This document shows, one piece after another, positions 878-62,888 of a stretch of 64,000 bases of DNA. Source of the DNA: Dehalococcoidia bacterium (GTDB lineage Bacteria > Chloroflexota > Dehalococcoidia > Lucifugimonadales > Australimonadaceae); assembly GCA_965200975.1 (NCBI GenBank), contig OZ241740.1:1996244-2060243 (forward strand), in the 5' to 3' direction. Both the position numbers and the translations under genes were made by a program. The notes under the pieces are model-generated. The model saw only the letters and a program-made list of their open reading frames with translations. It was not told where the DNA came from and made no database searches. Numbering within the stretch: position 1 is the first letter of the stretch; every line of letters starts with the position of its first letter.

Positions 878-1795
878 ATGCGAATCGACGTTCACGCCCA
901 CTACATCCCAGCCTCTCTGCCCGAGATCGCGAACCGGCGCGGCGGCTTCGGCCCCGCCGCCAATATGCGCGACAGTATGTCCGACCTCGACCGGCGCATC
1001 GCCGATATGGACGAGCGCGGCATCGACGTCGAGCTCGTCTCCGCGCCGCCCTACGTGCAGAACGCCGACCCCGACGTCTGCCGGCGGATGAACGACGCCA
1101 CCGCCGAGGCGATAGCCGGTTCGGCGCGGTTCATCGGCCTCGCCACGCTGCCGATGCAAGAGCCGGAGACGGCTGCCGCCGAGCTCGAGCGGTGCGTGCG
1201 GGAGCTGGGCTTTCGGGGGTTGGAGATCCTTACGAACGTGCACGGCGAGAACCTGCACGCGCCGCGCTTTGCGCCCCTCTACCGCAAGATGGAGGAGCTC
1301 GACGTTGCAGCGTTCGTGCATCCGCAGAACGTGCTCGGCGCCGACCGGCTCGGCCAGTTCTTTATGAACAACATCATCGGCAACCCGAGCGACACCGCCG
1401 TCGCCGCAGGCTGCCTGATCTTCGGCGGCGTGCTGGCGGAGATGCCCGCGCTCCGGTTCGTCCTCGCGCACGGCGGCGGCACGTGCCCGCTGCTGCGCGG
1501 ACGCTGGGAACACGCCTGGCGGCAGCATCTGGTGGAGGACGCCGCCATCACCCGCCCGCCGTCGGAGTACTTCCGTAAGCTCTACTTCGACACCCTGACG
1601 CACAGCGGCCCCGCGCTCAGCTACCTGGTGGAGACGGTAGGGCCGGAGCGCCTGATGCTCGGAAGCGACTACCCGTTCGGCATGGGCGACTACACCCCGC
1701 CGGCGAGCGTGCAAGCCCTCCCCCGCCTAACCGACGCCGAACGCGACGCCATCTACAGCCAAAACGCCATCCGCGTATTCGGCCTCGACCTCTAA
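878..1795 (+). CDS. amidohydrolase family 2 (ACMSD-like metal-dependent hydrolase/decarboxylase)
   Basis: ORF 878..1795. It starts RIDVHAHYIP (metal-binding HxH), has HGGG mid-protein and GSDYPFG near the C-terminus. Confidence 0.8.
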   Translation: MRIDVHAHYIPASLPEIANRRGGFGPAANMRDSMSDLDRRIADMDERGIDVELVSAPPYVQNADPDVCRRMNDATAEAIAGSARFIGLATLPMQEPETAAAELERCVRELGFRGLEILTNVHGENLHAPRFAPLYRKMEELDVAAFVHPQNVLGADRLGQFFMNNIIGNPSDTAVAAGCLIFGGVLAEMPALRFVLAHGGGTCPLLRGRWEHAWRQHLVEDAAITRPPSEYFRKLYFDTLTHSGPALSYLVETVGPERLMLGSDYPFGMGDYTPPASVQALPRLTDAERDAIYSQNAIRVFGLDL

Positions 1796-1843
1796 GCAGC
1801 GCACCCCGCCCCGCCTGCGGCTGCCAGAGCGCGGCTGCCCCTT

Positions 1844-2050
1844 GGCTGCCAGGGGGTCTGGGGGAGCGGACGCTCTCCCAGCTGCTACGCAACACCGGCG
1901 CCCCGCCCATAACAGCCCCCAGCTGCTACGCAACACCGGCGCCCCCGCCTGCTCAGAGGCGCCCCCACGCAACAGCTCGCCTGCCCAGAGCACGCCGCCT
2001 TGTCGACAACTCCCGGGAGAGAGTTCTCTCCCCCGGACCCCCTCATTATT
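1844..2050 (+). repeat. REPIN/MITE-like element, copy A (contains an internal ~40-bp duplication)
   Basis: Left end ggctgccAGGGGGTCTGGGGGAGCGGACGCTCTCCCAGCTGCTACGC. Right end CTCCCGGGAGAGAGTTCTCTCCCCCGGACCCCCTCATTATT. The two ends are inverted copies of each other and each is itself a hairpin. Confidence 0.9.
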
Positions 2051-2114
2051 GCTCCTGCTGCGCGCTTGCTCCTGCTGCGCGCTCGCGCCTGCTTAGGGAC
2101 GCCGCCCGCCAGAC

Positions 2115-2279
2115 GGCTGCCAGGGGGTCTGGGGGAGCGGACGCTCTCCCAGCTGCTACGCAACACCGGCGCCCCCGCCTGCTCAGAGGCGCCCCCACGC
2201 AACAGCTCGCCTGCCCAGAGCACGCCGCCTTGTCGACAACTCCCGGGAGAGAGTTCTCTCCCCCGGACCCCCTCATTAT
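2115..2279 (+). repeat. REPIN/MITE-like element, copy B
   Basis: Near-identical to 1920-2050 over ~165 bp, with the same terminal hairpins. Confidence 0.9.
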
Positions 2280-2343
2280 GTATTGCAGCGCGCCCGCGCT
2301 TGCTGAGGGCGCGCGCGGTGGGGAATTCCTTGGTTGCAGACTG

Positions 2344-2374
2344 TTGACAGCGGCAACCGGATAACTCGTATACT
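2344..2374 (+). promoter_or_regulatory. sigma70-type promoter of cassette 1
   Basis: TTGACA (2344-2349), 19-nt spacer, TATACT (2369-2374). The same arrangement sits at the same place upstream of cassette 3 and resembles the rpmH promoter at 41389. Confidence 0.6.
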
Positions 2375-2497
2375 ATTGCCCCCGTTGGGCGTTTTGCCCG
2401 GCGGCGCCTCGCCGGATAGAGGGCGGGGCGCGGCGGTCTGCGATAGCCGTTCAGGAGGGCGAACGCTTCCTGCGGCGATCAGGAAAGGAGGAGCGCG
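2375..2497 (+). promoter_or_regulatory. conserved ~120-nt 5' leader of cassette 1 with covarying hairpins
   Basis: Alignable with 4943-5060. GCGCCTCGCC..GGCGGGGCGC and CAGGAGG..CTTCCTG stems change compensatorily in copy 3. Ends in the RBS GGAAAGGAGG. Confidence 0.4.
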
Positions 2498-3396
2498 ATG
2501 AGTGCGCTTTCGAGTGTTCGTCCCGTTCGGTTGGTTGCCCTGCTGGCTGCGCTACTCGCGCTCGTCTCACTCGGCATCCCCCCCCCGCACACGCAGCGTA
2601 TGAGGACTGCCCGGGGAGCACGTGCACGATAGCGGTCGATGACTCCACGGACGTCCTCACGATCACCTACACAGACACAGACCACAACGGTGTAACGACG
2701 ACATTGACGGCGTCGGTGACGTTCACCAATGACTCAGGCGACCCCGGTTGGGAGAATCCGACATTCACAGGGGGGCTGAGGCTTCCTGCTCAGACTCCTC
2801 CCTATGAATTTGGCGATCTGCCCTCCAACCGTTGGTTGTACTCCAACGAAGTCTACTTCTACGAGAACAACGACCGGTTCTACATTCGGCGCGGCGGCTA
2901 TAACAGCGTGGGCATCAACGGCGGCTATAACAGCGTGGGCATCAACGGCGACTATAACGCTGAGACCGGCAACGTCGATTTCCTCGTCATCGGCACCGAT
3001 CCCGACCAGACCTTCACCGTATCCGGAACCCCGGCCACCCCGCCCTCGACCCTCGACCTCGGCACGTGCACGGTGAGCTCCGGTGGCGAGAGCGGCAACT
3101 GGTGCACCACCAACACGCCGAAGATCACCGTCACCTACGACGACAACGATACGTCGAGCGTCAACCTGCGGATATGGGGGCGCAAGCCGTCCTACAACCC
3201 GGCTAGCATCAAGCGCGCCTCTAACGGCGGACACATAGGCATACCCGGGTGGCGGAGCAGCGTCCGCACGATAACGTTCTCGCGCAACGGCTACGAGGAC
3301 GTTAAGGTGGACTTCTCGGTGGACTACCGCAACGACTTGGATCCCCCCTTGCACGGCAGCAGGTTCGTTCTCTCGGCTTGGGAGCGCGACTACTAG
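2498..3396 (+). CDS. secreted protein, paralog 1 (signal peptide and mature domain in different frames at a C9 tract)
   Basis: ATG 2498 with RBS gives MSALSSVRPVRLVALLAALLALVSLGIPPP, then stops at 2630-2632. The mature frame is open from the C-run through ORF 2704..3396. One extra C would give ...PPPPAHA|AYEDC, an AxA cleavage site. Confidence 0.7.
2893..2946 (+). repeat. perfect 27-bp tandem duplication inside paralog 1
   Basis: ggcggctataacagcgtgggcatcaac occurs twice back to back (GGYNSVGIN x2), followed by a diverged third unit. Confidence 0.95.
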
Positions 3397-3432
3397 CAAG
3401 CGCGCAAGCGCACAAGCAGCAACGAGTAGAGA

Positions 3433-3469
3433 GGGGCGGGGGCCATGCGTGGCCCCCGCCCTTTCTTTG
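3433..3469 (+). terminator. Rho-independent terminator of cassette 1
   Basis: GGGCGGGGGCCA-tgcg-TGGCCCCCGCCC followed by TTTCTTTG. Confidence 0.85.
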
Positions 3470-3497
3470 CGCCCCGCGCGGCTGGCGGCTGCCCCTT

Positions 3498-3662
3498 GGC
3501 TGCCAGGGGGTCTGGGGGAGCGGACGCTCTCCCAGCTGCATCGCAACACCGGCGCCCCGGCTGCTCAGAGGCGCCCCCACGCAACAGCTTGCCTGCCCGG
3601 AGCACGCGCGCTTGTCGACAACTCCCGGGAGAGAGTTCTCTCCCCCGGACCCCCTCATTATT
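3498..3662 (+). repeat. REPIN/MITE-like element, copy C
   Basis: Same two terminal hairpins and core as copies A and B. Confidence 0.9.
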
Positions 3663-3740
3663 GTTTGCTGCGCGCCCGCGCTTGCTCCCTCGTTATTTGC
3701 TTGCTCCGCGCCCGCGCTTGCGCCGCCTCGTTATTGCCCC
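3663..3740 (+). repeat. iterated sub-terminal motif array (GCGCTTGC..CCTCGTTATT)
   Basis: cgcgcttgctccctcgttatt and cgcgcttgcgccgcctcgttatt follow directly after the ..CCCCCTCATTATT end of copy C. Confidence 0.7.
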
Positions 3741-3792
3741 CTGCGCAAAGCGCCCCTCCGTGGCCCAGAGCGCCCGCTCTCCCGGCGCGCTG

Positions 3793-3822
3793 TTGACAGG
3801 GGCGCGTGGAGGCTGGTATAAG
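3793..3822 (+). promoter_or_regulatory. sigma70-type promoter of cassette 2 (extended -10)
   Basis: TTGACA (3793-3798), 18-nt spacer, TGG-TATAAG (3814-3822). Confidence 0.6.
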
Positions 3823-3938
3823 AATCCCCCCGCTGGGGCGGCCTGTCTCGCGGGGATCCTTGCCGGAAAGGGCGAGGAGCGACAGCGATTCCGTTCCGGG
3901 AGGCGGGCGCCCCCCGCGACAGATAAGAAGGAGTGCCA

Positions 3939-4489
3939 ATGAGTTCGCTTCTGAGCATTCGTCCCGTCTGGTTGGTCGCCATGCTGCTGCGCTGCTCGCG
4001 CTCGCCTCGCTCGGCATTGGCGCCCTCCTCTCCCCCGCCGCGCATGCGCAATCGGCGACCGTCATCGACGGTCAGGGCCGCAGCAGCATAGAGCTTCCCC
4101 CCATCAAGCCCCTGCCCCGCGGCGGCGTCCTCGACCTCGGCTCGTGCACGGTGCCCGTCCCCGGCGTGCACGGTAACGCCTACGAGTGCACCACCGACAC
4201 GCCGACGATCAGCGTCACCTACTTCAACGACGAGTCCCGGGTCTCGAGCGTCGATCTGCGGATATACGCCGGCAAGCCGTCGTACAACCCGGCCAGCAGG
4301 AGGTACGCTCCTCGCGGGCGTATTTGGATACCCGGGTGGGGGAACAGGGTCCGCACGATAACGTTCTCGCACCGCGACCTCCCGAACATTCTCGTGAACT
4401 TCAGGGTGTCCCGCAGCTGCGACGACGATGGCAACTGCAAGCCCGTCCTCACGGTTTGGGAGCAGCAAAGCAACTTCTGGTACCGGTAG
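3939..4489 (+). CDS. secreted protein, paralog 2 (short form; 1-nt frame break inside the signal peptide)
   Basis: RBS AAGGAG plus ATG 3939 gives MSSLLSIRPVWLVA, then goes off frame. The mature frame (ORF 3806..4489) reads ..AAALLALASLGIGALLSPAAHA|QSATV. Alignment to copy 1 shows one nucleotide missing near 3980. Confidence 0.65.
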
Positions 4490-4517
4490 AAGCGCAAGCG
4501 CAACCTACAGCAAGAGA

Positions 4518-4554
4518 GGGGCGGGGGCCACGCAACACCCCCGCCCCCTTTTTG
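4518..4554 (+). terminator. Rho-independent terminator of cassette 2
   Basis: GGGGCGGGGG-ccacgcaaca-CCCCCGCCCC followed by TTTTTG. Confidence 0.85.
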
Positions 4555-4584
4555 CGTCCTGCCCACAACGCCAAGCGGGTGCGG

Positions 4585-4622
4585 AGAATAACGGGGGGGG
4601 GATAACGAGGGCGCGGGGGGAG
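4585..4622 (+). repeat. iterated sub-terminal motif array (ATAACG(A)GGGGG)
   Basis: gagaataacggggggggg, gataacgagggcg and gagaataacgaggggg stacked in front of copy D. Confidence 0.65.
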
Positions 4623-4859
4623 AATAACGAGGGGGTCTGGGGGAGCGGACGCTCTCCCAGCTACAACGCAACACCCCCGCCTCGCCCATAACAGCCCCCT
4701 GCGCAACCGCGCTCGGCGCTGCCCCCGGCTGCCAGGGGGCGCCGCCCGGACGGCTGCCCCCCGCTGCAACGGCAATGAGCGCTGTCTGCTGTTGTATGGG
4801 CGGCGCCGGCTGCCGACACTCCCGGGAGAGAGTTCTCTCCCCCAGACCCCCTCGTTATT
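4623..4859 (+). repeat. REPIN/MITE-like element, copy D (long variant, subfamily II core)
   Basis: Ends AATAACGAGGGGGTCTGGGGGAGCGGACGCTCTCCCAGCTAC ... CTCCCGGGAGAGAGTTCTCTCCCCCAGACCCCCTCGTTATT. The core differs from copies A-C and matches inverted copy E. Confidence 0.85.
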
Positions 4860-4911
4860 CTTCCTCCGCAACCGCGCTTGCGCCCCGCGGGAATTCCCTG
4901 CTTGCAGACTG

Positions 4912-4942
4912 TTGACGGCGGCAACGGGAGGACTCGTATACT
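4912..4942 (+). promoter_or_regulatory. sigma70-type promoter of cassette 3
   Basis: TTGACG (4912-4917), 19-nt spacer, TATACT (4937-4942). The flanking box gaattccctgcttgcagactg is conserved with cassette 1. Confidence 0.6.
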
Positions 4943-5060
4943 AATTGCCCCGTTGGGCGTTTTGCCCGGCGGGCGCCTCGCCTGACAGGGCGAGGCGCGG
5001 CGTCTGCGGCGCCGTTCAGGGGGCGGGCGCTCCCTGCGGCAGTAAGAAAGGAGGAGCGCG

Positions 5061-5884
5061 ATGAGCGCGCTTTCGAGTGTTCGTCCCGTTCGGTTGGTTG
5101 GCCTGCTGGCTGCGCTACTCGCGCTCGTCTCATTCGGCATTTTCACCCCCCCCCCGCGTATGCAGCGTTTACAGACTGCGACAATGAGTCGGGGAGCACG
5201 TGCACGCTAGCGATAAGCGGCGAAACCCTCACGATCACCTTCACCGATGGTGAGACGGCGGCGGTGACGTTCACCACTACCGCAGGCGCCCCCGATTGGA
5301 AAGATGAGACCCTCTCATCGGGTCTGAGTGAAGTGGATTTTTCCACCCTGAGCCGCACACCGCCTATAAAGCTGTTGGGAAACGACGAAGTCTACTTCTA
5401 CAAGAACAACAACCGGTTCTACATTCGGCGCGGCGGGTATCACAGCGTGCGCATCGACGCCGACGAGGACAACAACACCTTCAAGTTCCTCGTCCGCAAC
5501 ATCGGGGAGACCATCACCATAAACGGCTACCCGGACACGATCCTCGACATAACCAATTGCGAGGGCCCCAATGCGCCCGAATGCACCTCGAACAAGCCGA
5601 CGATCAGCGTCGCTTACGCCAACGGCTTTACCTCGAGCGTCCGGTTGCGGGTGCACAGAGGCAAGCCCTCCTATATTCCGAGCAGCCGTAGCCCCGCCTT
5701 TGGCGGAGGATCCATCAGCATACCCGGGTGGGGCAGGAGCATCCGCACGGTAACGTTCTCGCACTCCCTCTTTAAGGACGTCAAGGTGGATTTCGCCGTG
5801 GACTACCGCTGTGATCGGGACTCGGACGGCAAACGCACCAATTGCGGGTACAGGGTCTCGGCCTGGAAGAGCGACAGCCAGTAA
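5061..5884 (+). CDS. secreted protein, paralog 3 (signal peptide and mature domain in different frames at a C10 tract)
   Basis: ATG 5061 gives MSALSSVRPVRLVGLLAALLALVSFGIFTPPP, then stops at about 5208. The mature frame is open through ORF 5264..5884. One extra C would give ..TPPPPAYA|AFTDC. Confidence 0.7.
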
Positions 5885-5914
5885 GCGCGCAAGCGCAAGC
5901 AATGCAACGAGAGA

Positions 5915-5947
5915 GGCGGGGGCCTTGCGTGGCCCCCGCCCTTTTTG
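5915..5947 (+). terminator. Rho-independent terminator of cassette 3
   Basis: GGCGGGGGCC-ttgcgt-GGCCCCCGCC followed by CTTTTTG. Confidence 0.85.
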
Positions 5948-6009
5948 CGCCCTGCGCGCCCTGCGCGCCCGCGCCTGCGCTTGGCAGCCGAGTGCTGGCG
6001 GGGAGGAGG

Positions 6010-6177
6010 AAATAACGAGGGGGTCCGGGGGAGAGAACTCTCTCCCCCGGGAGTTGTCGGCAAGTCGGCGCCCCTCAAACAGCAGACAGCGCTCATACGT
6101 TGCGCAGGGGCTGCTATGGGCGGGGCGGTTGCGTTGCAGCTGGGAGAGCGTCCGCTCCCCCAGACCCCCTCGTTATT
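6010..6177 (-). repeat. REPIN/MITE-like element, copy E (inverted, subfamily II core)
   Basis: AAATAACGAGGGGGTCCGGGGGAGAGAACTCTCTCCCCCGGGAG ... CAGCTGGGAGAGCGTCCGCTCCCCCAGACCCCCTCGTTATT. The core is the reverse complement of the copy D core. Confidence 0.85.
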
Positions 6178-6250
6178 CTCCCCCCGCCGCCCCTGCCCCC
6201 CCTCATTATTGCTTGCTCCCCCCGCCGCCCCTGCCCCTCGTTATTCTTCT
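6178..6250 (+). repeat. iterated sub-terminal motif array
   Basis: cccgccgcccctgccccccctcattatt and ccgccgcccctgcccctcgttatt follow copy E. Confidence 0.6.
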
Positions 6251-6346
6251 CTCCTCCTCCCCGCCAGCGATCGGCTGCCATCTCCCCCGAAGGCGGCAGC
6301 CGTATCGGGTATACTCGCGGCATTCCCTTTGGAGCGTGGAGGCGGT

Positions 6347-37135: not shown

Positions 37136-38475
37136 TCACATCCACACCTCCATCGACGGAGGACTCATGAACGCAAGCGCCAGCGCGTCCGCCTTGTCCG
37201 GCGACGGCAGCCCCGCCTTTCGCAACTCCTCCTTGCTCACTAGCCGGATACGTCCTCCGCTCTCGATCCTGTACCGCAACGACAACAGCTGACCAACGAG
37301 CTCCGGGTCGTCCGGCAGCGCAATCTCCTCCTCCGCCATCCGGCGCCGCAACTCCCAGAAGATCTCCGCCCGCAGGTCCTCGAAACGCTCTTTCAGACGC
37401 GCCCGGCCTCCCGCCTGCACGCCGATCACCGGCGCCCCCAACTCCTTCAAACGGTCCACCACGCCGCCGCCGACCCCCGCCTCGTCCACGAACACCGCCA
37501 CCACCTCTTGCGCATTCACCGCCTCGTTCACTTCCGCCGCTATCCGCATCGTGTCCACTCCCCGGTACACCGCCATCCTCTCGACCCGCGGCCCCCGGCG
37601 CAGACACAGCACCGTCTTGTCGTTGCCGAACCGCGCAACGTCCCCCCCCCATAATCAGGAACGCCCCCTCCGAACGGGCGGCTCCCCGCCCCCAGCGCGC
37701 CACTGCCGCGTCCAACTGCTTGCGCGACACCAGCGAGTCGTCCAGAGCCTCGGGAAACTGCCCCAGCACCGCAATCACATACCGGGAGTCGTCCTCTCCC
37801 CACTCCCGCCGGCGCTCATCCACATCCTCCGGAGTCAGCATCCCCGGCACAGCGTCGGGGCGGCCCGCAACCAGGTTCGGCGTGTCGAACGCCGAGATCG
37901 CCACCCGCGAGTACAGCGCGCTCTTCGAGTGATGCGAGTCGTAGAACTCCCCCGTCAGCGACAACGGGTTGCCGGTGAACAGCAGCCGCTTCGGGTTCAG
38001 CCGCTTCAGAGCGTCGAGGTGGCCCTGCCCCACCGCGTGAGCCTCCGTAACCACCACCAGCAACTCCGGCGAGTGAAACCCCTGCAGGTTGTACGGATGG
38101 TCCGTCGCGAACCCCAGCGCAAACCGCTCGTCGTTCACCACGTACTTCGACGCGTGCATCTTCCCGCTCAGGCTTCGGCCAGCCAGCGCATACGCCAGCC
38201 GAAGCTCCCGCCACACCACCTCCTCCACCTGCCGCTGCGTCGGCCCCGTCACGATCGCCTTCGACTGCAAGCGCGTCTCTATCCACCACAGCACTACCCG
38301 GGCCGCAGCCCAGTCCTTCCCCCGATCCGTTGCATCCCACCACCGACACCCGCCGGTTCGCCGCCACTCGCTCCAGCACTTCCGACTGCTTCCCGTACGG
38401 TCTCCCTCCTTCCCCCAGCACATCCTCCACAAACCCCACCGGATCGTCCGCGTACTGCTCCAGCGCCAGCCCCAT
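37136..38475 (-). pseudogene. terminase large subunit, broken by two frameshifts in G-runs
   Basis: Three ORF pieces. 38475->~38322: ..VVGCNGSG. ~38320->37650: KDWAAARVVLWWIE...GFHSPELLVVVTEAH. 37648->37136: DVARFGNDKTV...VFVDEAGVGGG...SPDKADALALAF. Confidence 0.85.
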
Positions 38476-55416: not shown

Positions 55417-55575
55417 CCCAAGCGCTCATGCCCCCACGACGCTTGCCCATTGCCCCATGCTCCCCGCGATTGATACGCTGCCCATCGCGACAGCCCCCCC
55501 CCGACGTGAAGCCATACCCCCACTTACGAGTGAGATGAGCCCAATTACCTCCGCATCGATGCGAAAGCAGGCCCC

Positions 55576-61230: not shown

Positions 61231-62307
61231 GTGCGCGAGCACAAGGTAATCGTCATCGAAGGCGACGGCATCGGCCCCGAGCTCGTGGGAGCAGCCCTCG
61301 CGGTGCTCCGCGCCGTCGAACAGACGGCGGGAACGTTCCGCCTCGATATCGAGTTCCACCGGGGCGGCGCCGCCCTCTACAGCGAGACCGGCGTCAATCT
61401 CTCCCCGGAATCCCTGGCGGCAATCAAGGCAGCCGGCGCCACAATGAAGGGGCCGGTGGGCCTGCCAAGCGTCCGGCTTCCCGACGGCACCGAGGCCGGC
61501 GTGCTCGGCGGCGTGCTCCGCATCGGACTCGACACTTACGCCAACGTGCGCCCCGTGCGGCTGCTGCCCGGCGTCCCCGCCTCGCTCAAGGCCGAGCCGG
61601 GAGAGATCGACTACGTAATCGTCCGCGAGAACACCGAGGGCCTGTACTTGTCCAGAGGAAAGGGCGTGCAGACCGATACGGCGGCGGCGGACACTCTGCT
61701 CGTAACCCGCAAGGGAGTGGAGCGCGTGGCCCGGCGGGCGTTCGAACTGGCCGCTCAGCGCAACGGCGCTCCCGCCGACGGCGTGCGGCGCGTGACCTGC
61801 GTCGACAAGGCGAACGTGCTCCCTTCGATGGCGTTCTTCCGGCGCGTCTTCGATGAAGTTGGCGAGGAGTACCCCGGCGTCCAGCGGGAGCATCTCTACG
61901 CCGACGCTGCGGCGCAAGCCCTGGTCGCGGGCCCCCAACACTTCGACGTGCTCGTCATGGAAAACTTCCTCGGCGACATCCTCAGCGACCTGGGCGGAGG
62001 AACGGTCGGCGGCATCGGCCTCTGCCCGTCAGGCAATATCGGCGACGAACACGCGTACTTCGAGCCTATCCACGGCTCCGCGCCCGATATCGCAGGACAG
62101 GACAAAGCTAACCCTGTTTCGCAGACGCTCTCCGTCGCGATGATGCTGGACCACCTCGGCGAAACGGCGGGCGCGGAACTCGTGCGGCGAGCTGTGGCGG
62201 AATCGCTCGCAACCGGACGCCTGCAGATAGGAGAGCGCGGCCAGCCTGTCGGCGGCACGGCCAAGGCTGGCGAAACCATCGCCAACGTCGCCCGCCAGCT
62301 GGACTAA
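61231..62307 (+). CDS. isocitrate/isopropylmalate/tartrate dehydrogenase family protein
   Basis: ..IVIEGDGIGPE...VRENTEGLY...NFLGDILSDL...GSAPDIAGQDKANP. Confidence 0.88.
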   Translation: MREHKVIVIEGDGIGPELVGAALAVLRAVEQTAGTFRLDIEFHRGGAALYSETGVNLSPESLAAIKAAGATMKGPVGLPSVRLPDGTEAGVLGGVLRIGLDTYANVRPVRLLPGVPASLKAEPGEIDYVIVRENTEGLYLSRGKGVQTDTAAADTLLVTRKGVERVARRAFELAAQRNGAPADGVRRVTCVDKANVLPSMAFFRRVFDEVGEEYPGVQREHLYADAAAQALVAGPQHFDVLVMENFLGDILSDLGGGTVGGIGLCPSGNIGDEHAYFEPIHGSAPDIAGQDKANPVSQTLSVAMMLDHLGETAGAELVRRAVAESLATGRLQIGERGQPVGGTAKAGETIANVARQLD

Positions 62308-62489
62308 CCCACCCCACACCAACCAGGGGGTCTGGGGGAGCGAACGCTCTCCCAGTTTGCGTAGATATCGTTCGTCTGAAAGTACCGCAGCGCGGCGAAT
62401 GCCCGGATGCGCCGGACCTCCGGGTCGCCCTTGCCGGGCAACTCTGCGCCGCCCCAGAACTGCTTACGCGGGTCAATCTTCTCCGTCAC
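62304..62489 (-). CDS. small paralog P3 (C-terminus replaced by repeat DNA)
   Basis: MTEKIDPRKQFWGGAELPGKGDPEVRRIRAFAALRYFQTND.. aligns with P1 and P2 up to the repeat junction. Confidence 0.4.
   Translation of the reverse strand: MTEKIDPRKQFWGGAELPGKGDPEVRRIRAFAALRYFQTNDIYANWESVRSPRPPGWCGVG
62323..62357 (+). repeat. solo REP-like hairpin truncating small ORF P3
   Basis: CCAGGGGGTCTGGGGGAGCGAACGCTCTCCCAG. Its antisense translation forms the C-terminus (NWESVRSPRPPG) of ORF 62304..62489. Confidence 0.9.
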
Positions 62490-62679
62490 CTTGCTTGCTC
62501 CGGAGATATTCGCCGATGCGTTCCTCGGCCTTGCGAAACACCGTGATGTCCTCAGTCCGGTTGTACTCAGCGTGCGCCTCTCGCCGGATCTGATTTACCA
62601 CGGGGTCGCCTTCGCTAGCTAAGCTGGTGGCTGGCTCCCCCCCCCAGCGCAGCCCCGGGTCCCAGTGTTTCTCCGTCAT
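62473..62679 (-). CDS. small paralog P2
   Basis: MTEKHWDPGLRWGGEP..GDPVVNQIRREAHAEYNRTEDITVFRKAEERIGEYLRSK. ATGA overlap with P1. Confidence 0.5.
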   Translation of the reverse strand: MTEKHWDPGLRWGGEPATSLASEGDPVVNQIRREAHAEYNRTEDITVFRKAEERIGEYLRSKQGDGED

Positions 62680-62888
62680 TCGCCCTTGCTCCGCAAGTAT
62701 TCCGCGACGCGCTCCTCGCCCTTGTCAAGCTCGGCCGTATCGCGCGTCCGGTAGAACCGGTCCGCAGCTTCGCCGCGGATGCGCCGGACCTCCGGGTCAA
62801 CTTTGCTCGGCCAATCGAACGCCGGAGCTATCCAACGCTCCATCCGGCGGCGCTCTCGTTCCTCGTCCTCGCGGTCTTTATCTACCAT
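62676..62888 (-). CDS. small paralog P1
   Basis: ..WPSKVDPEVRRIRGEAADRFYRTRDTAELDKGEERVAEYLRSKGE. Confidence 0.5.
   Translation of the reverse strand: MVDKDREDEERERRRMERWIAPAFDWPSKVDPEVRRIRGEAADRFYRTRDTAELDKGEERVAEYLRSKGE

What the first reader, a model, noticed from the sequence alone, without database searches (positions are those of the whole stretch)
2570..2635. Paralog 1: signal peptide and mature domain separated by a frame break at a C9 tract
ATG 2498 with its RBS encodes a complete n/h-region and then runs through CCCCCCCCC (2578-2586) into a stop at 2630-2632. The mature domain is open in the frame reached by adding one C or removing two. That change creates ...GIPPPPAHA|AYEDC with an AxA signal-peptidase site. 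Possible causes are DNA-level phase variation, transcriptional slippage, -1 ribosomal slippage on Pro codons, or a homopolymer miscall.
Basis: partly seen in the sequence, partly recalled or inferred. Interest (0 to 1): 0.6.

Follow-up and report, generated by a model that had tools for sequence, protein, structure and literature searches.

The report
Poly-C frameshift silences secreted-protein gene
A run of nine C's in the export-signal part of a gene of unknown function puts the rest of the gene out of frame; its neighbours are broken the same way in independent data, so it is most likely a real 'off' or dying copy of a slippage-prone, fast-evolving secreted-protein family in an uncultured Dehalococcoidia bacterium.

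Summary
ATG 2498 with a strong RBS encodes a textbook signal-peptide n/h-region. It runs into C9 (2578-2586) and stops at 2630-2632. The 266-codon mature domain is open in the frame reached by +1C or -2C.

The break is not isolated:
- Neighbour P3 has the same break at a homologous C10 (5146-5155).
- P2 is broken by a 1-nt deletion outside any homopolymer.
- A fourth paralog elsewhere in the genome (P0006) is broken just after its signal peptide.
- Only one of the five paralogs (P0004) is intact.

Independent short assemblies of public runs reproduce P3's C10 exactly in 7 samples. They also reproduce the P2 and P0006 breaks. A G9 that lies in frame in another ORF is reproduced unchanged. An intergenic G9 next to P2 is G8 in half of the samples.

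A homopolymer miscall is therefore unlikely, although P1's own tract could not be checked. No stimulatory RNA structure follows the tract, and the paralogs do not share one break site, so programmed recoding is unsupported.

Best reading: a real DNA-level slippage frameshift, an OFF allele of the pilC / P. acnes PPA2127 type. Whether it still switches or is simply decaying is unresolved. It is a new member of a known kind, of moderate interest.

The parts
2344..2374 (+). Promoter-like element of P1: TTGACA (2344-2349), 19-nt spacer, TATACT (2369-2374)
   Evidence: Both hexamers are conserved in all three paralogs in alignment A2. A promoter role is inferred.
2375..2497 (+). Conserved 5' leader of about 125 nt, with RBS AAAGGAGGAG at 2484-2493
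   Evidence: 80-87% identical between P1 and P3. Three hairpins are shared by the three paralogs, with 2 compensatory pairs. No Rfam family matches.
2498..2632 (+). Signal-peptide reading frame of P1 (44 codons plus TAG): n-region MSALSSVRPVR, h-region LVALLAALLALVSLGI, then the out-of-frame tail PPPHTQRMRTARGARAR
   Evidence: The region is 95-97% identical in DNA to the P3 signal-peptide region.
2578..2586 (+). C9 homopolymer, the frame-break point. C10 or C7 would be in frame and give GIPPPAHA|AYEDC or GIPPAHA|AYEDC
2596..3396 (+). Mature-domain frame of P1: 266 codons plus stop, starting AYEDCPGSTC. It has paired cysteines and a conserved C-terminal domain of about 75 aa (LRI..KPSYNPAS...IPGW...RTITFS)
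   Evidence: Zero stops; 0 of 2000 shuffles stay open. GC3 is 0.82. Homologous to P3, P2, P0004 and P0006.
2892..2945 (+). Perfect in-frame 27-bp tandem duplication inside P1 (GGYNSVGIN twice)
   Evidence: repeated 31-mers at 2892/2919.
3434..3468 (+). GC-rich hairpin followed by TTTCTTT, a terminator-like end of the P1 unit
   Evidence: Read. The homologous hairpin after P3 (5915-5940) was reported by the scan.
3939..4489 (+). Paralog P2. ATG 3939 follows RBS AAGGAG. One base is missing at about 3985/3986 relative to P1 and P3 (CTGGCTG becomes CTGCTG). The ATG frame stops at 4089-4091 and the mature frame runs to 4489
   Evidence: Alignment A2. The sequence is identical in 4 independent contigs, L011-L014.
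4593..4601 (+). Intergenic G9 between P2 and P3. Its length is polymorphic among samples
   Evidence: G9 in L012 (a contig shared by 3 samples) and G8 in L011, L013 and L014. L012 and L013 match the window at every other base over about 1 kb; L011 has one further mismatch.
5061..5884 (+). Paralog P3. ATG 5061; C10 at 5146-5155; the ATG frame stops at 5208-5210; the mature frame (AFTDC...) runs to 5884. It needs C11 or C8
   Evidence: C10 is confirmed in L015-L019, covering 7 samples.

Best explanation
C9 is the true, dominant genomic sequence. P1 belongs to a lineage-specific tandem array of fast-evolving secreted proteins. Members share a conserved 5' cassette (promoter-like element, leader, RBS, signal peptide) joined to a divergent all-beta, cysteine-paired mature domain.

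In its in-frame length (C10) the poly-C tract encodes the Pro-Pro-Pro of the signal-peptide c-region, just before the AHA|A cleavage site. Replication slippage (slipped-strand mispairing) removed one C. Ribosomes starting at ATG 2498 therefore make only a 44-residue leader and stop at 2630. The mature domain is never joined to an export signal.

P1 is thus an OFF allele of a slippage-prone gene. It works like the homopolymer switches in the signal-peptide regions of Neisseria pilC or P. acnes PPA2127. A +1C slip would turn it back on.

Shown: the anatomy, the homologous break in P3, that the P3, P2 and P0006 breaks are real, and the instability of a neighbouring tract.

Inferred: that P1's C9 is equally real, that slippage caused it, and that the protein is exported.

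Of my 0.78 for a DNA-level cause, I put slightly more on recent inactivation in a family that is being shut down (about 0.43). That view rests on four of five paralogs being broken, two of them irreversibly. I put about 0.35 on a maintained ON/OFF switch.
For: 1. Anatomy. The break lies within the tract, between a complete n/h-region and a mature frame that opens with an AxA site.
2. P3 has the same -1 defect at a homologous tract of a different length, C10 where C11 or C8 is needed.
3. P3's C10 is reproduced exactly in 5 independently assembled contigs covering 7 samples from two run series.
4. The P2 break (a single-base deletion) and the P0006 break lie outside homopolymers. They are identical in 4 and 5 independent contigs. 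Genuine frameshifts are therefore the rule in this family.
5. Controls. A G9 in the small ORF 62476-62679(-) reads in frame on both sides, as judged against its paralogs. It is reproduced in 3 contigs. A prophage terminase is broken at G9 and G5 and needs one base fewer. PHROG 2 matches across both repaired sites at E = 1e-31. There is therefore no uniform under-calling of long runs.
6. The intergenic G9 at 4593-4601 is G8 in 3 of 4 contigs that are otherwise identical apart from one mismatch in L011. Runs of this length do slip in these populations.
7. The mature frames are real coding sequence with a single lesion each: 0 stops, 0 of 2000 shuffles open, GC3 0.80-0.88.
8. Family signature. 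The signal-peptide DNA is 95-97% identical between P1 and P3, against 35-75% in the mature part. dN/dS between paralogs is 0.7-1.7. The array is an insertion absent from the closest relatives.
Against: - P1's own tract could not be checked in independent data. The expected downstream fragment was not on record.
- No tract-length variation was seen at P3, which is C10 in all 7 samples. Reversibility is not demonstrated.
- The independent assemblies may come from the same sequencing project as the reference. Their read technology is unknown to me.
- The number of C9 runs in the window is not above chance.
- No ON allele of P1 or P3 was found in any collection. Full-length genes could not assemble there, because a 31-mer is shared between P1 and P3.
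Confidence: 0.78

Rival explanations
1. Programmed recoding. RNA polymerase slips on the C9/C10 template and adds a C to a fraction of transcripts, or ribosomes slip -1 on C CCC CCC. A set fraction of full-length secreted protein would then be made from the 'broken' gene.
For: - A run of at least 9 identical bases lets the whole RNA-DNA hybrid re-pair (general knowledge).
- P1 and P3 both need the same shift.
- P3's C10 is invariant in 7 samples while a nearby intergenic tract varies. This could hint at constraint on its length.
- Promoter-like element, RBS and mature ORF are all intact.
Against: - No significant or shared structure follows the tract, with z-scores of -0.77 and +0.55.
- P2 and P0006 are broken at non-slippery sites, and P0006 needs the opposite shift. 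P0004 has no tract at all. No single recoding signal is conserved in the family.
- From my own knowledge, the known bacterial cases of transcriptional slippage use A/T runs.
Confidence: 0.07
2. Homopolymer miscall at P1 only. The true sequence is C10 and the gene is intact.
For: - Long C/G runs are the commonest site of consensus indel errors, and +1C would repair the gene exactly.
- P1's tract is the one tract I could not verify.
Against: - P3's equivalent break is verified in 7 samples.
- The rest of the array matches independent contigs at 99.8-100%.
- An in-frame G9 elsewhere is called consistently.
- The long ORFs of the window are intact.
- The terminase breaks need a base removed, not added.
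Confidence: 0.1
3. Two separate products. The leader ORF makes a small membrane peptide (a TM helix plus an Arg-rich tail). The mature domain is translated on its own from an internal start, such as GTG 2716 as in the deposited annotation (P0001), giving a cytoplasmic protein.
For: - The public gene call starts at GTG 2716.
- The 44-aa and 49-aa leader products of P1 and P3 both end in RGARAR.
Against: - No RBS precedes GTG 2716 or TTG 2704.
- The internal start would drop about 40 conserved residues, including the first cysteine pair.
- Paired cysteines fit an exported protein, not a cytoplasmic one.
- The intact paralog P0004 is a single signal-peptide-plus-domain protein.
- P2's leader frame has no hydrophobic helix.
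Confidence: 0.05

Closest known systems
Neisseria gonorrhoeae pilC1/pilC2: poly-G tract in the signal-peptide coding region
   Same: A G/C homopolymer lies inside the signal-peptide coding region. Its length decides whether the mature protein is in frame. On/off switching by frameshift in that tract is described in PMC5354566. There are several paralogous copies, and not all of them are ON.
   Different: - For pilC, switching has been demonstrated experimentally and the product has a known function.
- Here no length variation at the gene's tract and no function are known.
- The organism is an uncultured Dehalococcoidia, not a proteobacterial pathogen.
Cutibacterium (Propionibacterium) acnes PPA2127 / PA-25957 and PPA1880 adhesin genes
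   Same: These are high-GC bacteria with secreted proteins that lack homologues elsewhere. [quoted passage not shown]
   Different: - In P. acnes, strain-to-strain tract differences and matching presence or absence in the secretome were shown.
- Here only one state (OFF) is seen for P3, and P1 is unverified.
Listeria monocytogenes inlA 5' poly-A tract, and the general 5' bias of homopolymer tracts in prokaryotic genes
   Same: A homopolymer near the 5' end gives cheap, reversible inactivation and leaves only a very short product (PMC2831843).
   Different: That study concerns A/T tracts of up to about 7 bases. Here the tracts are C runs of 9-10 bases in a 67% GC genome.
Programmed transcriptional slippage (e.g. 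Thermus dnaX A9, Shigella mxiE T9, Roseiflexus IS630 T5C5; from my own knowledge)
   Same: A run long enough for the RNA-DNA hybrid to re-pair, with a product that needs one extra base in the mRNA.
   Different: - The known cases use A/T runs or a defined hairpin-dependent motif, and the site is conserved among homologues.
- Here the run is poly-C, no helper structure was found, and the other paralogs lack the site.

Membership tests
SSR-mediated phase-variable (contingency) gene | A hypermutable simple repeat lies inside the ORF or promoter | tested here: met
   C9 at 2578-2586 lies inside the signal-peptide coding region.
SSR-mediated phase-variable (contingency) gene | A change of repeat length toggles the reading frame between a full product and early termination | tested here: met
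   In-silico C7 and C10 give a full signal peptide plus mature protein. C8, C9 and C11 do not.
SSR-mediated phase-variable (contingency) gene | Repeat-length polymorphism at the locus within or between populations | tested here: not met
   - The P1 tract is not retrievable.
- The homologous P3 tract is C10 in all 7 samples.
- Only the neighbouring intergenic tract varies, G8 or G9.
- Minority alleles inside samples cannot be seen in assemblies.
SSR-mediated phase-variable (contingency) gene | High-frequency, reversible switching of expression | not testable with these tools
   This needs read-level tract distributions or culture work, and the organism is uncultured.
Programmed -1 ribosomal frameshift site | Slippery heptamer X XXY YYZ in the zero frame | tested here: met
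   C CCC CCC is present at 2578-2584, so tRNA-Pro can re-pair perfectly. In a homopolymer this is trivially true.
Programmed -1 ribosomal frameshift site | A stimulatory hairpin or pseudoknot a few bases downstream, conserved among homologues | tested here: not met
   The folds of 2587-2676 and 5156-5245 are no better than shuffles (z = -0.77 and +0.55), and they differ from each other.
Programmed transcriptional slippage | A slippage-prone run conserved at the same place in homologues that all need the same shift | tested here: not met
   Only P1 and P3 have it. P2 and P0004 have no run, and P0006 needs the opposite shift.
Programmed transcriptional slippage | mRNA population with extra bases relative to the DNA | not testable with these tools
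   There are no RNA data.
Pseudogene (decaying copy) | A disrupted ORF that is fixed in the population | tested here: inconclusive
   - The ORF is disrupted.
- Fixation is shown for P3, P2 and P0006 at consensus level.
- It is not shown for P1.
Pseudogene (decaying copy) | Several independent lesions and loss of coding signature | tested here: not met
   - There is a single lesion.
- The mature frame has 0 stops in 266 codons, and GC3 is 0.82.
- Promoter-like element, RBS and terminator-like hairpin are kept.
- If it is a pseudogene, it is a recent one.
Sec-type signal peptide with a signal peptidase I site | Positively charged n-region, hydrophobic h-region of 10-20 residues, small residues at -3 and -1 | tested here: met
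No dedicated predictor was available.

The most novel reading that the evidence does not exclude
The break is decoded rather than dead. RNA polymerase or ribosome slippage on poly-C would supply a fixed small fraction of in-frame product for P1 and P3. The tract length would then be held constant by selection: P3 is C10 in all 7 samples, while a neutral tract nearby drifts between G8 and G9. That would be poly-C-based programmed recoding of secreted proteins in Chloroflexota.

A less exotic novel reading is maintained ON/OFF phase variation in an uncultured, probably host-associated Dehalococcoidia. It has a probability of about 0.35 and would rate about 0.5.
Probability: 0.07. Interest if true: 0.7.

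Novelty: new member of a known kind. Interest (0 to 1): 0.35.

Why it matters
- If the tracts still switch, this would extend homopolymer contingency loci to Chloroflexota/Dehalococcoidia, a phylum where I know of no such report. The relatives appear to be marine or sponge-associated MAGs. It would also mark an orphan, fast-evolving secreted family as a likely interface with a host or with phages.
- If they do not switch, it is a clean example of how poly-C runs in high-GC genomes are the first place a dispensable gene breaks.
- For annotation, the deposited gene calls (truncated ORFs starting at GTG 2716 and GTG 5264, and a 227-aa P2 with a false N-terminal extension) misdescribe the locus.
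- The check method may be reusable. One predicts where a k=31 assembly must cut a contig, then looks up the resulting partial protein. This verifies homopolymer lengths without access to reads.

Tried and rejected
- Pfam and NCBIfam scans of the repaired proteins gave only sub-threshold noise.
- Word-indexed protein searches returned only the window's own truncated ORFs.
- Scans of GTDB genomes and JGI metagenomes with the family alignment found no relative.
- There are no family members in the syntenic loci of 48 related genomes.
- Looking up the 44-aa and 49-aa leader ORFs found nothing on record.
- Exact look-up of ten modelled partial proteins with C7-C12 tracts was uninformative, because that collection does not hold contig-cut proteins.
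- The P1 downstream fragment 2923-3393 is not on record. The 27-bp duplication may be collapsed or absent in those assemblies.
- The AlphaFold model from three sequences was unusable, with pLDDT 42.
- With ten sequences the C-terminal domain reached pLDDT of about 80-90, but Foldseek against the PDB gave nothing better than E = 0.04 and TM 0.2.
- Rfam on the whole window gave no match.
- The promoter scan missed the conserved hexamers because their spacer is 18-19 nt.
- I rejected a systematic under-call of long runs. It would break the in-frame G9 ORF, and it would not mend the terminase, P2 or P0006.

Full report
**1. Observation**

- A strong RBS (AAAGGAGGAG, 2484-2493) precedes ATG 2498.
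- The ATG frame encodes MSALSSVRPVR-LVALLAALLALVSLGI. It then passes through exactly nine C's (2578-2586) and ends at TAG 2630-2632 after 44 codons.
- The frame one base back reads PPPAHA|AYEDCPGSTC... and is open to 3394-3396.
- C10 or C7 joins the two frames.
- The only correction is that C10 gives three prolines (GIPPPAHA|A), not four.

C9 runs as such are not enriched in this 67% GC window: 7 matches against 2.76 expected, and 10 of 100 shuffles do as well. The placement is what is not random. The mature frame is a real coding frame. It has 0 stops in 266 codons; the other frames have 8-15 stops, apart from its antisense partner with 1. No shuffle of 2000 stays open, and GC3 is 0.82.

**2. 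The break is a family trait**

The window carries three tandem paralogs:
- P1, 2498-3396
- P2, 3939-4489
- P3, 5061-5884

Each has its own conserved promoter-like hexamers (TTGACA, 18-19 nt, TATACT/TATAAG). Each also has a 5' leader of about 125 nt with three shared hairpins, an RBS, and a terminator-like hairpin.

P3 has the same defect as P1 at the homologous position. Its tract has a different length: C10 at 5146-5155, where C11 or C8 is needed. P2 has no run there. It lacks one base at about 3985/3986 relative to both others (CTGGCTG becomes CTGCTG), which again separates the ATG frame from the mature frame.

A profile search of 1.84 billion proteins found two more paralogs. They come from the same samples, and they are probably from the same genome.
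- P0004 is an intact 282-aa protein with a signal peptide and no Pro run.
- P0006 has a signal-peptide frame that ends shortly after the first cysteine motif and a mature frame that needs the opposite correction.

Four of five members are therefore broken within their first 55 codons or so.

**3. Sequencing error or not**

The public short assemblies (k = 31) of runs SRR33960550-54 and SRR33991074-96 contain this organism.

From the repeated 31-mers in the window I predicted that the contig carrying P3's tract must start at 5103. Its gene would then be called from the contig edge in the mature frame. Looking up that exact partial product (window 5105-5881) returned 5 contigs representing 7 samples. 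All start at 5103, and all carry exactly C10.

Other checks:
- The P2 contigs (L011-L014) match the window, including the single-base deletion.
- The P0006 break is identical in five contigs.
- As a positive control, the small ORF 62476-62679(-) contains a G9 that must be in frame, judged against its two tandem paralogs. It is reproduced in three contigs.
- As a control in the other direction, a prophage terminase large subunit is broken at a G9 (37642-37650) and at a G5 (in 38310-38328). Both need one base fewer. PHROG 2 then matches residues 11-437 at E = 1e-31.

There is therefore no uniform under-calling of long runs that would mend P1 and P3.

P1's own tract remains unverified. Its contig is cut on both sides, by the 31-mer shared with P3 and by a 27-bp tandem duplication. 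The look-up tool does not accept such fragments.

**4. Are such tracts unstable here?**

Yes, at least one is. The intergenic G run at 4593-4601 is G9 in one contig (shared by 3 samples) and G8 in three others. Apart from one mismatch in L011, the contigs match the window at every other base over about 1 kb.

P3's C10 shows no such variation. Assemblies only show the majority allele.

**5. What the genes are**

No Pfam or NCBIfam family matches. The proteins are predicted to be all-beta, with paired cysteines, which fits an exported protein.

The last 75 residues or so form a conserved domain (LRV..GKPSY.P.S...G...I..WG...RTITFS). It recurs, often in tandem, in about 20 other unannotated proteins. 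It models at pLDDT of about 80-90 but has no PDB fold match.

Between P1 and P3 the signal-peptide DNA is 95-97% identical, while the mature part is 35-75% identical. dN/dS between paralogs is 0.7-1.7. A homogenised 5' cassette on a rapidly diversifying body is the pattern of variable surface or secreted families.

Neighbouring genes place the organism in Dehalococcoidia. The adjacent aldo-keto reductase is 89% identical to those of two Dehalococcoidia MAGs, with synteny at 80-85% DNA identity. In those relatives the gap between the flanking genes is about 0.8 kb instead of 4.5 kb, and no family member is present. The array is therefore a lineage-specific insertion, flanked by REP/MITE-like repeats.

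Several of the related MAG names are, from my memory, from marine sponges. This is not established here.

**6. Mechanism**

The best-supported account is a DNA-level slippage frameshift. The tract encodes the PPP of the signal-peptide c-region, and loss of one C uncouples the export signal from the mature domain. P1 then yields only a 44-residue leader.

This works like the homopolymer switch in the signal-peptide region of gonococcal pilC (PMC5354566). It also resembles the poly-C tract in the 5' end of the P. acnes adhesin gene PPA2127 (PMC3224659). The 5' position fits the general argument that 5' homopolymers give cheap, reversible inactivation (PMC2831843).

Whether switching is maintained is open.
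- For it: the family signature, two tracts each one step from ON, intact expression signals, single lesions, and a demonstrably unstable tract next door.
- Against it: P3 is OFF in every sample, and P2 and P0006 carry irreversible breaks, so the lineage tolerates or favours permanent loss.

I put 0.78 on a DNA-level cause, split about 0.43 for recent decay and 0.35 for a maintained switch.

**7. Rivals**

- Recoding (0.07). No stimulatory structure follows the tract. No break site is shared by all paralogs, and poly-C would be an unusual slippage signal. The constancy of C10 is the only hint in its favour.
- Miscall at P1 alone (0.10). It is possible because that tract is unverified, but everything around it checks out.
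- Separate leader peptide plus an internally initiated cytoplasmic domain (0.05). No RBS precedes the internal starts, conserved residues and a cysteine pair would be lost, and P0004 is a single fused protein.

**8. Verdict**

This is a real feature, correctly observed. It is most likely an OFF or recently dead allele created by poly-C slippage in a fast-evolving orphan secreted-protein family.

It is a new member of a known kind (homopolymer frameshift switches in signal-peptide regions) in an unusual phylum. Interest is moderate (0.35). It would rise if read-level data showed ON/OFF heterogeneity or if RNA or protein data showed decoding.

Noticed in passing
window 5061-5884 (C10 at 5146-5155): Paralog P3 has the same break between signal peptide and mature domain, at a homologous poly-C tract of a different length. 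C10 is reproduced in 5 independent contigs covering 7 samples.
   Followed up: yes
window 3939-4489 (about 3985/3986): Paralog P2 is frame-broken inside its signal peptide by a single-base deletion outside any homopolymer. The sequence is identical in 4 independent contigs. The public gene call (P0003, GTG 3806) gives it a false N-terminal extension.
   Followed up: yes
L007 314-1181 (break near 463-470): A further paralog (P0006), from the same samples, has an intact signal peptide (MSMTRIFLAVTGLLMLALLLAAYFVAPAPVAA|QEE). It loses frame just after the first Cys motif and needs the opposite correction (-1 or +2 nt). The break is identical in 5 contigs. Paralog P0004 (L001 1700-2548) is intact.
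   Followed up: yes
window 4593-4601: The intergenic G9 between P2 and P3 is G8 in 3 of 4 independent contigs. Apart from one mismatch in L011, these contigs match the window at every other base, so this is real tract-length polymorphism.
   Followed up: yes
window 37136-38475, minus strand: A phage terminase large subunit (PHROG 2, E = 1e-31 after repair) is broken twice at G runs: G9 at 37642-37650 and G5 within 38310-38328. Each needs one base fewer. It is probably a decaying prophage.
   Followed up: partly
window 62307-62888, minus strand: Three small tandem paralogous ORFs of 61-70 aa, with no family assigned. The middle one carries a G9 (62637-62645) that lies in frame near its 5' end. 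This is another tandem family with a long run in a 5' coding region.
   Followed up: partly
window 2892-2945: A perfect in-frame 27-bp tandem duplication in P1 (GGYNSVGIN twice). The expected downstream contig fragment was not on record, so the duplication may be collapsed or absent in the short assemblies.
   Followed up: partly
window 1831-2279, 3485-3663, 4610-4684, 4818-4865, 6011-6046, 6135-6187; also L007 100-170: REP/MITE-like GC-rich palindromic repeats bracket every paralog, for example GGGGGTCTGGGGGAGCGGACGCTCTCCC and CCCGGGAGAGAGTTCTCTCCCCCGGACCCCCTC. They include a 132-nt copy pair that is 100% identical (1918-2049 and 2148-2279). The same elements occur next to P0006.
   Followed up: partly
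window 2375-2497, 3817-3938, 4941-5060: A conserved 5' leader of about 125 nt with three hairpins is shared by the three paralogs. There are 2 compensatory pairs, but only 3 sequences. No Rfam family matches.
   Followed up: partly
P1 3096-3396, P2 4180-4489, P3 5575-5884; proteins P0005-P0024: A conserved all-beta domain of about 75 aa (LRV..GKPSY.P.S...G...I..WG...RTITFS) recurs, often in tandem, in about 20 other unannotated proteins. It has no Pfam family and no PDB fold match.
   Followed up: partly
window 55494-55502: A C9 run lies 74 nt upstream of the start (55576) of a 327-aa ORF that looks to me like a quinone oxidoreductase (not scanned against any family library). It may sit in the promoter region.
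   Followed up: no
window 1795-6301 compared with L020 3090-3934 and L021 9175-9961: The whole three-paralog array is an insertion of about 3.7 kb relative to the closest Dehalococcoidia genomes, which have only about 0.8 kb between the same flanking genes.
   Followed up: yes
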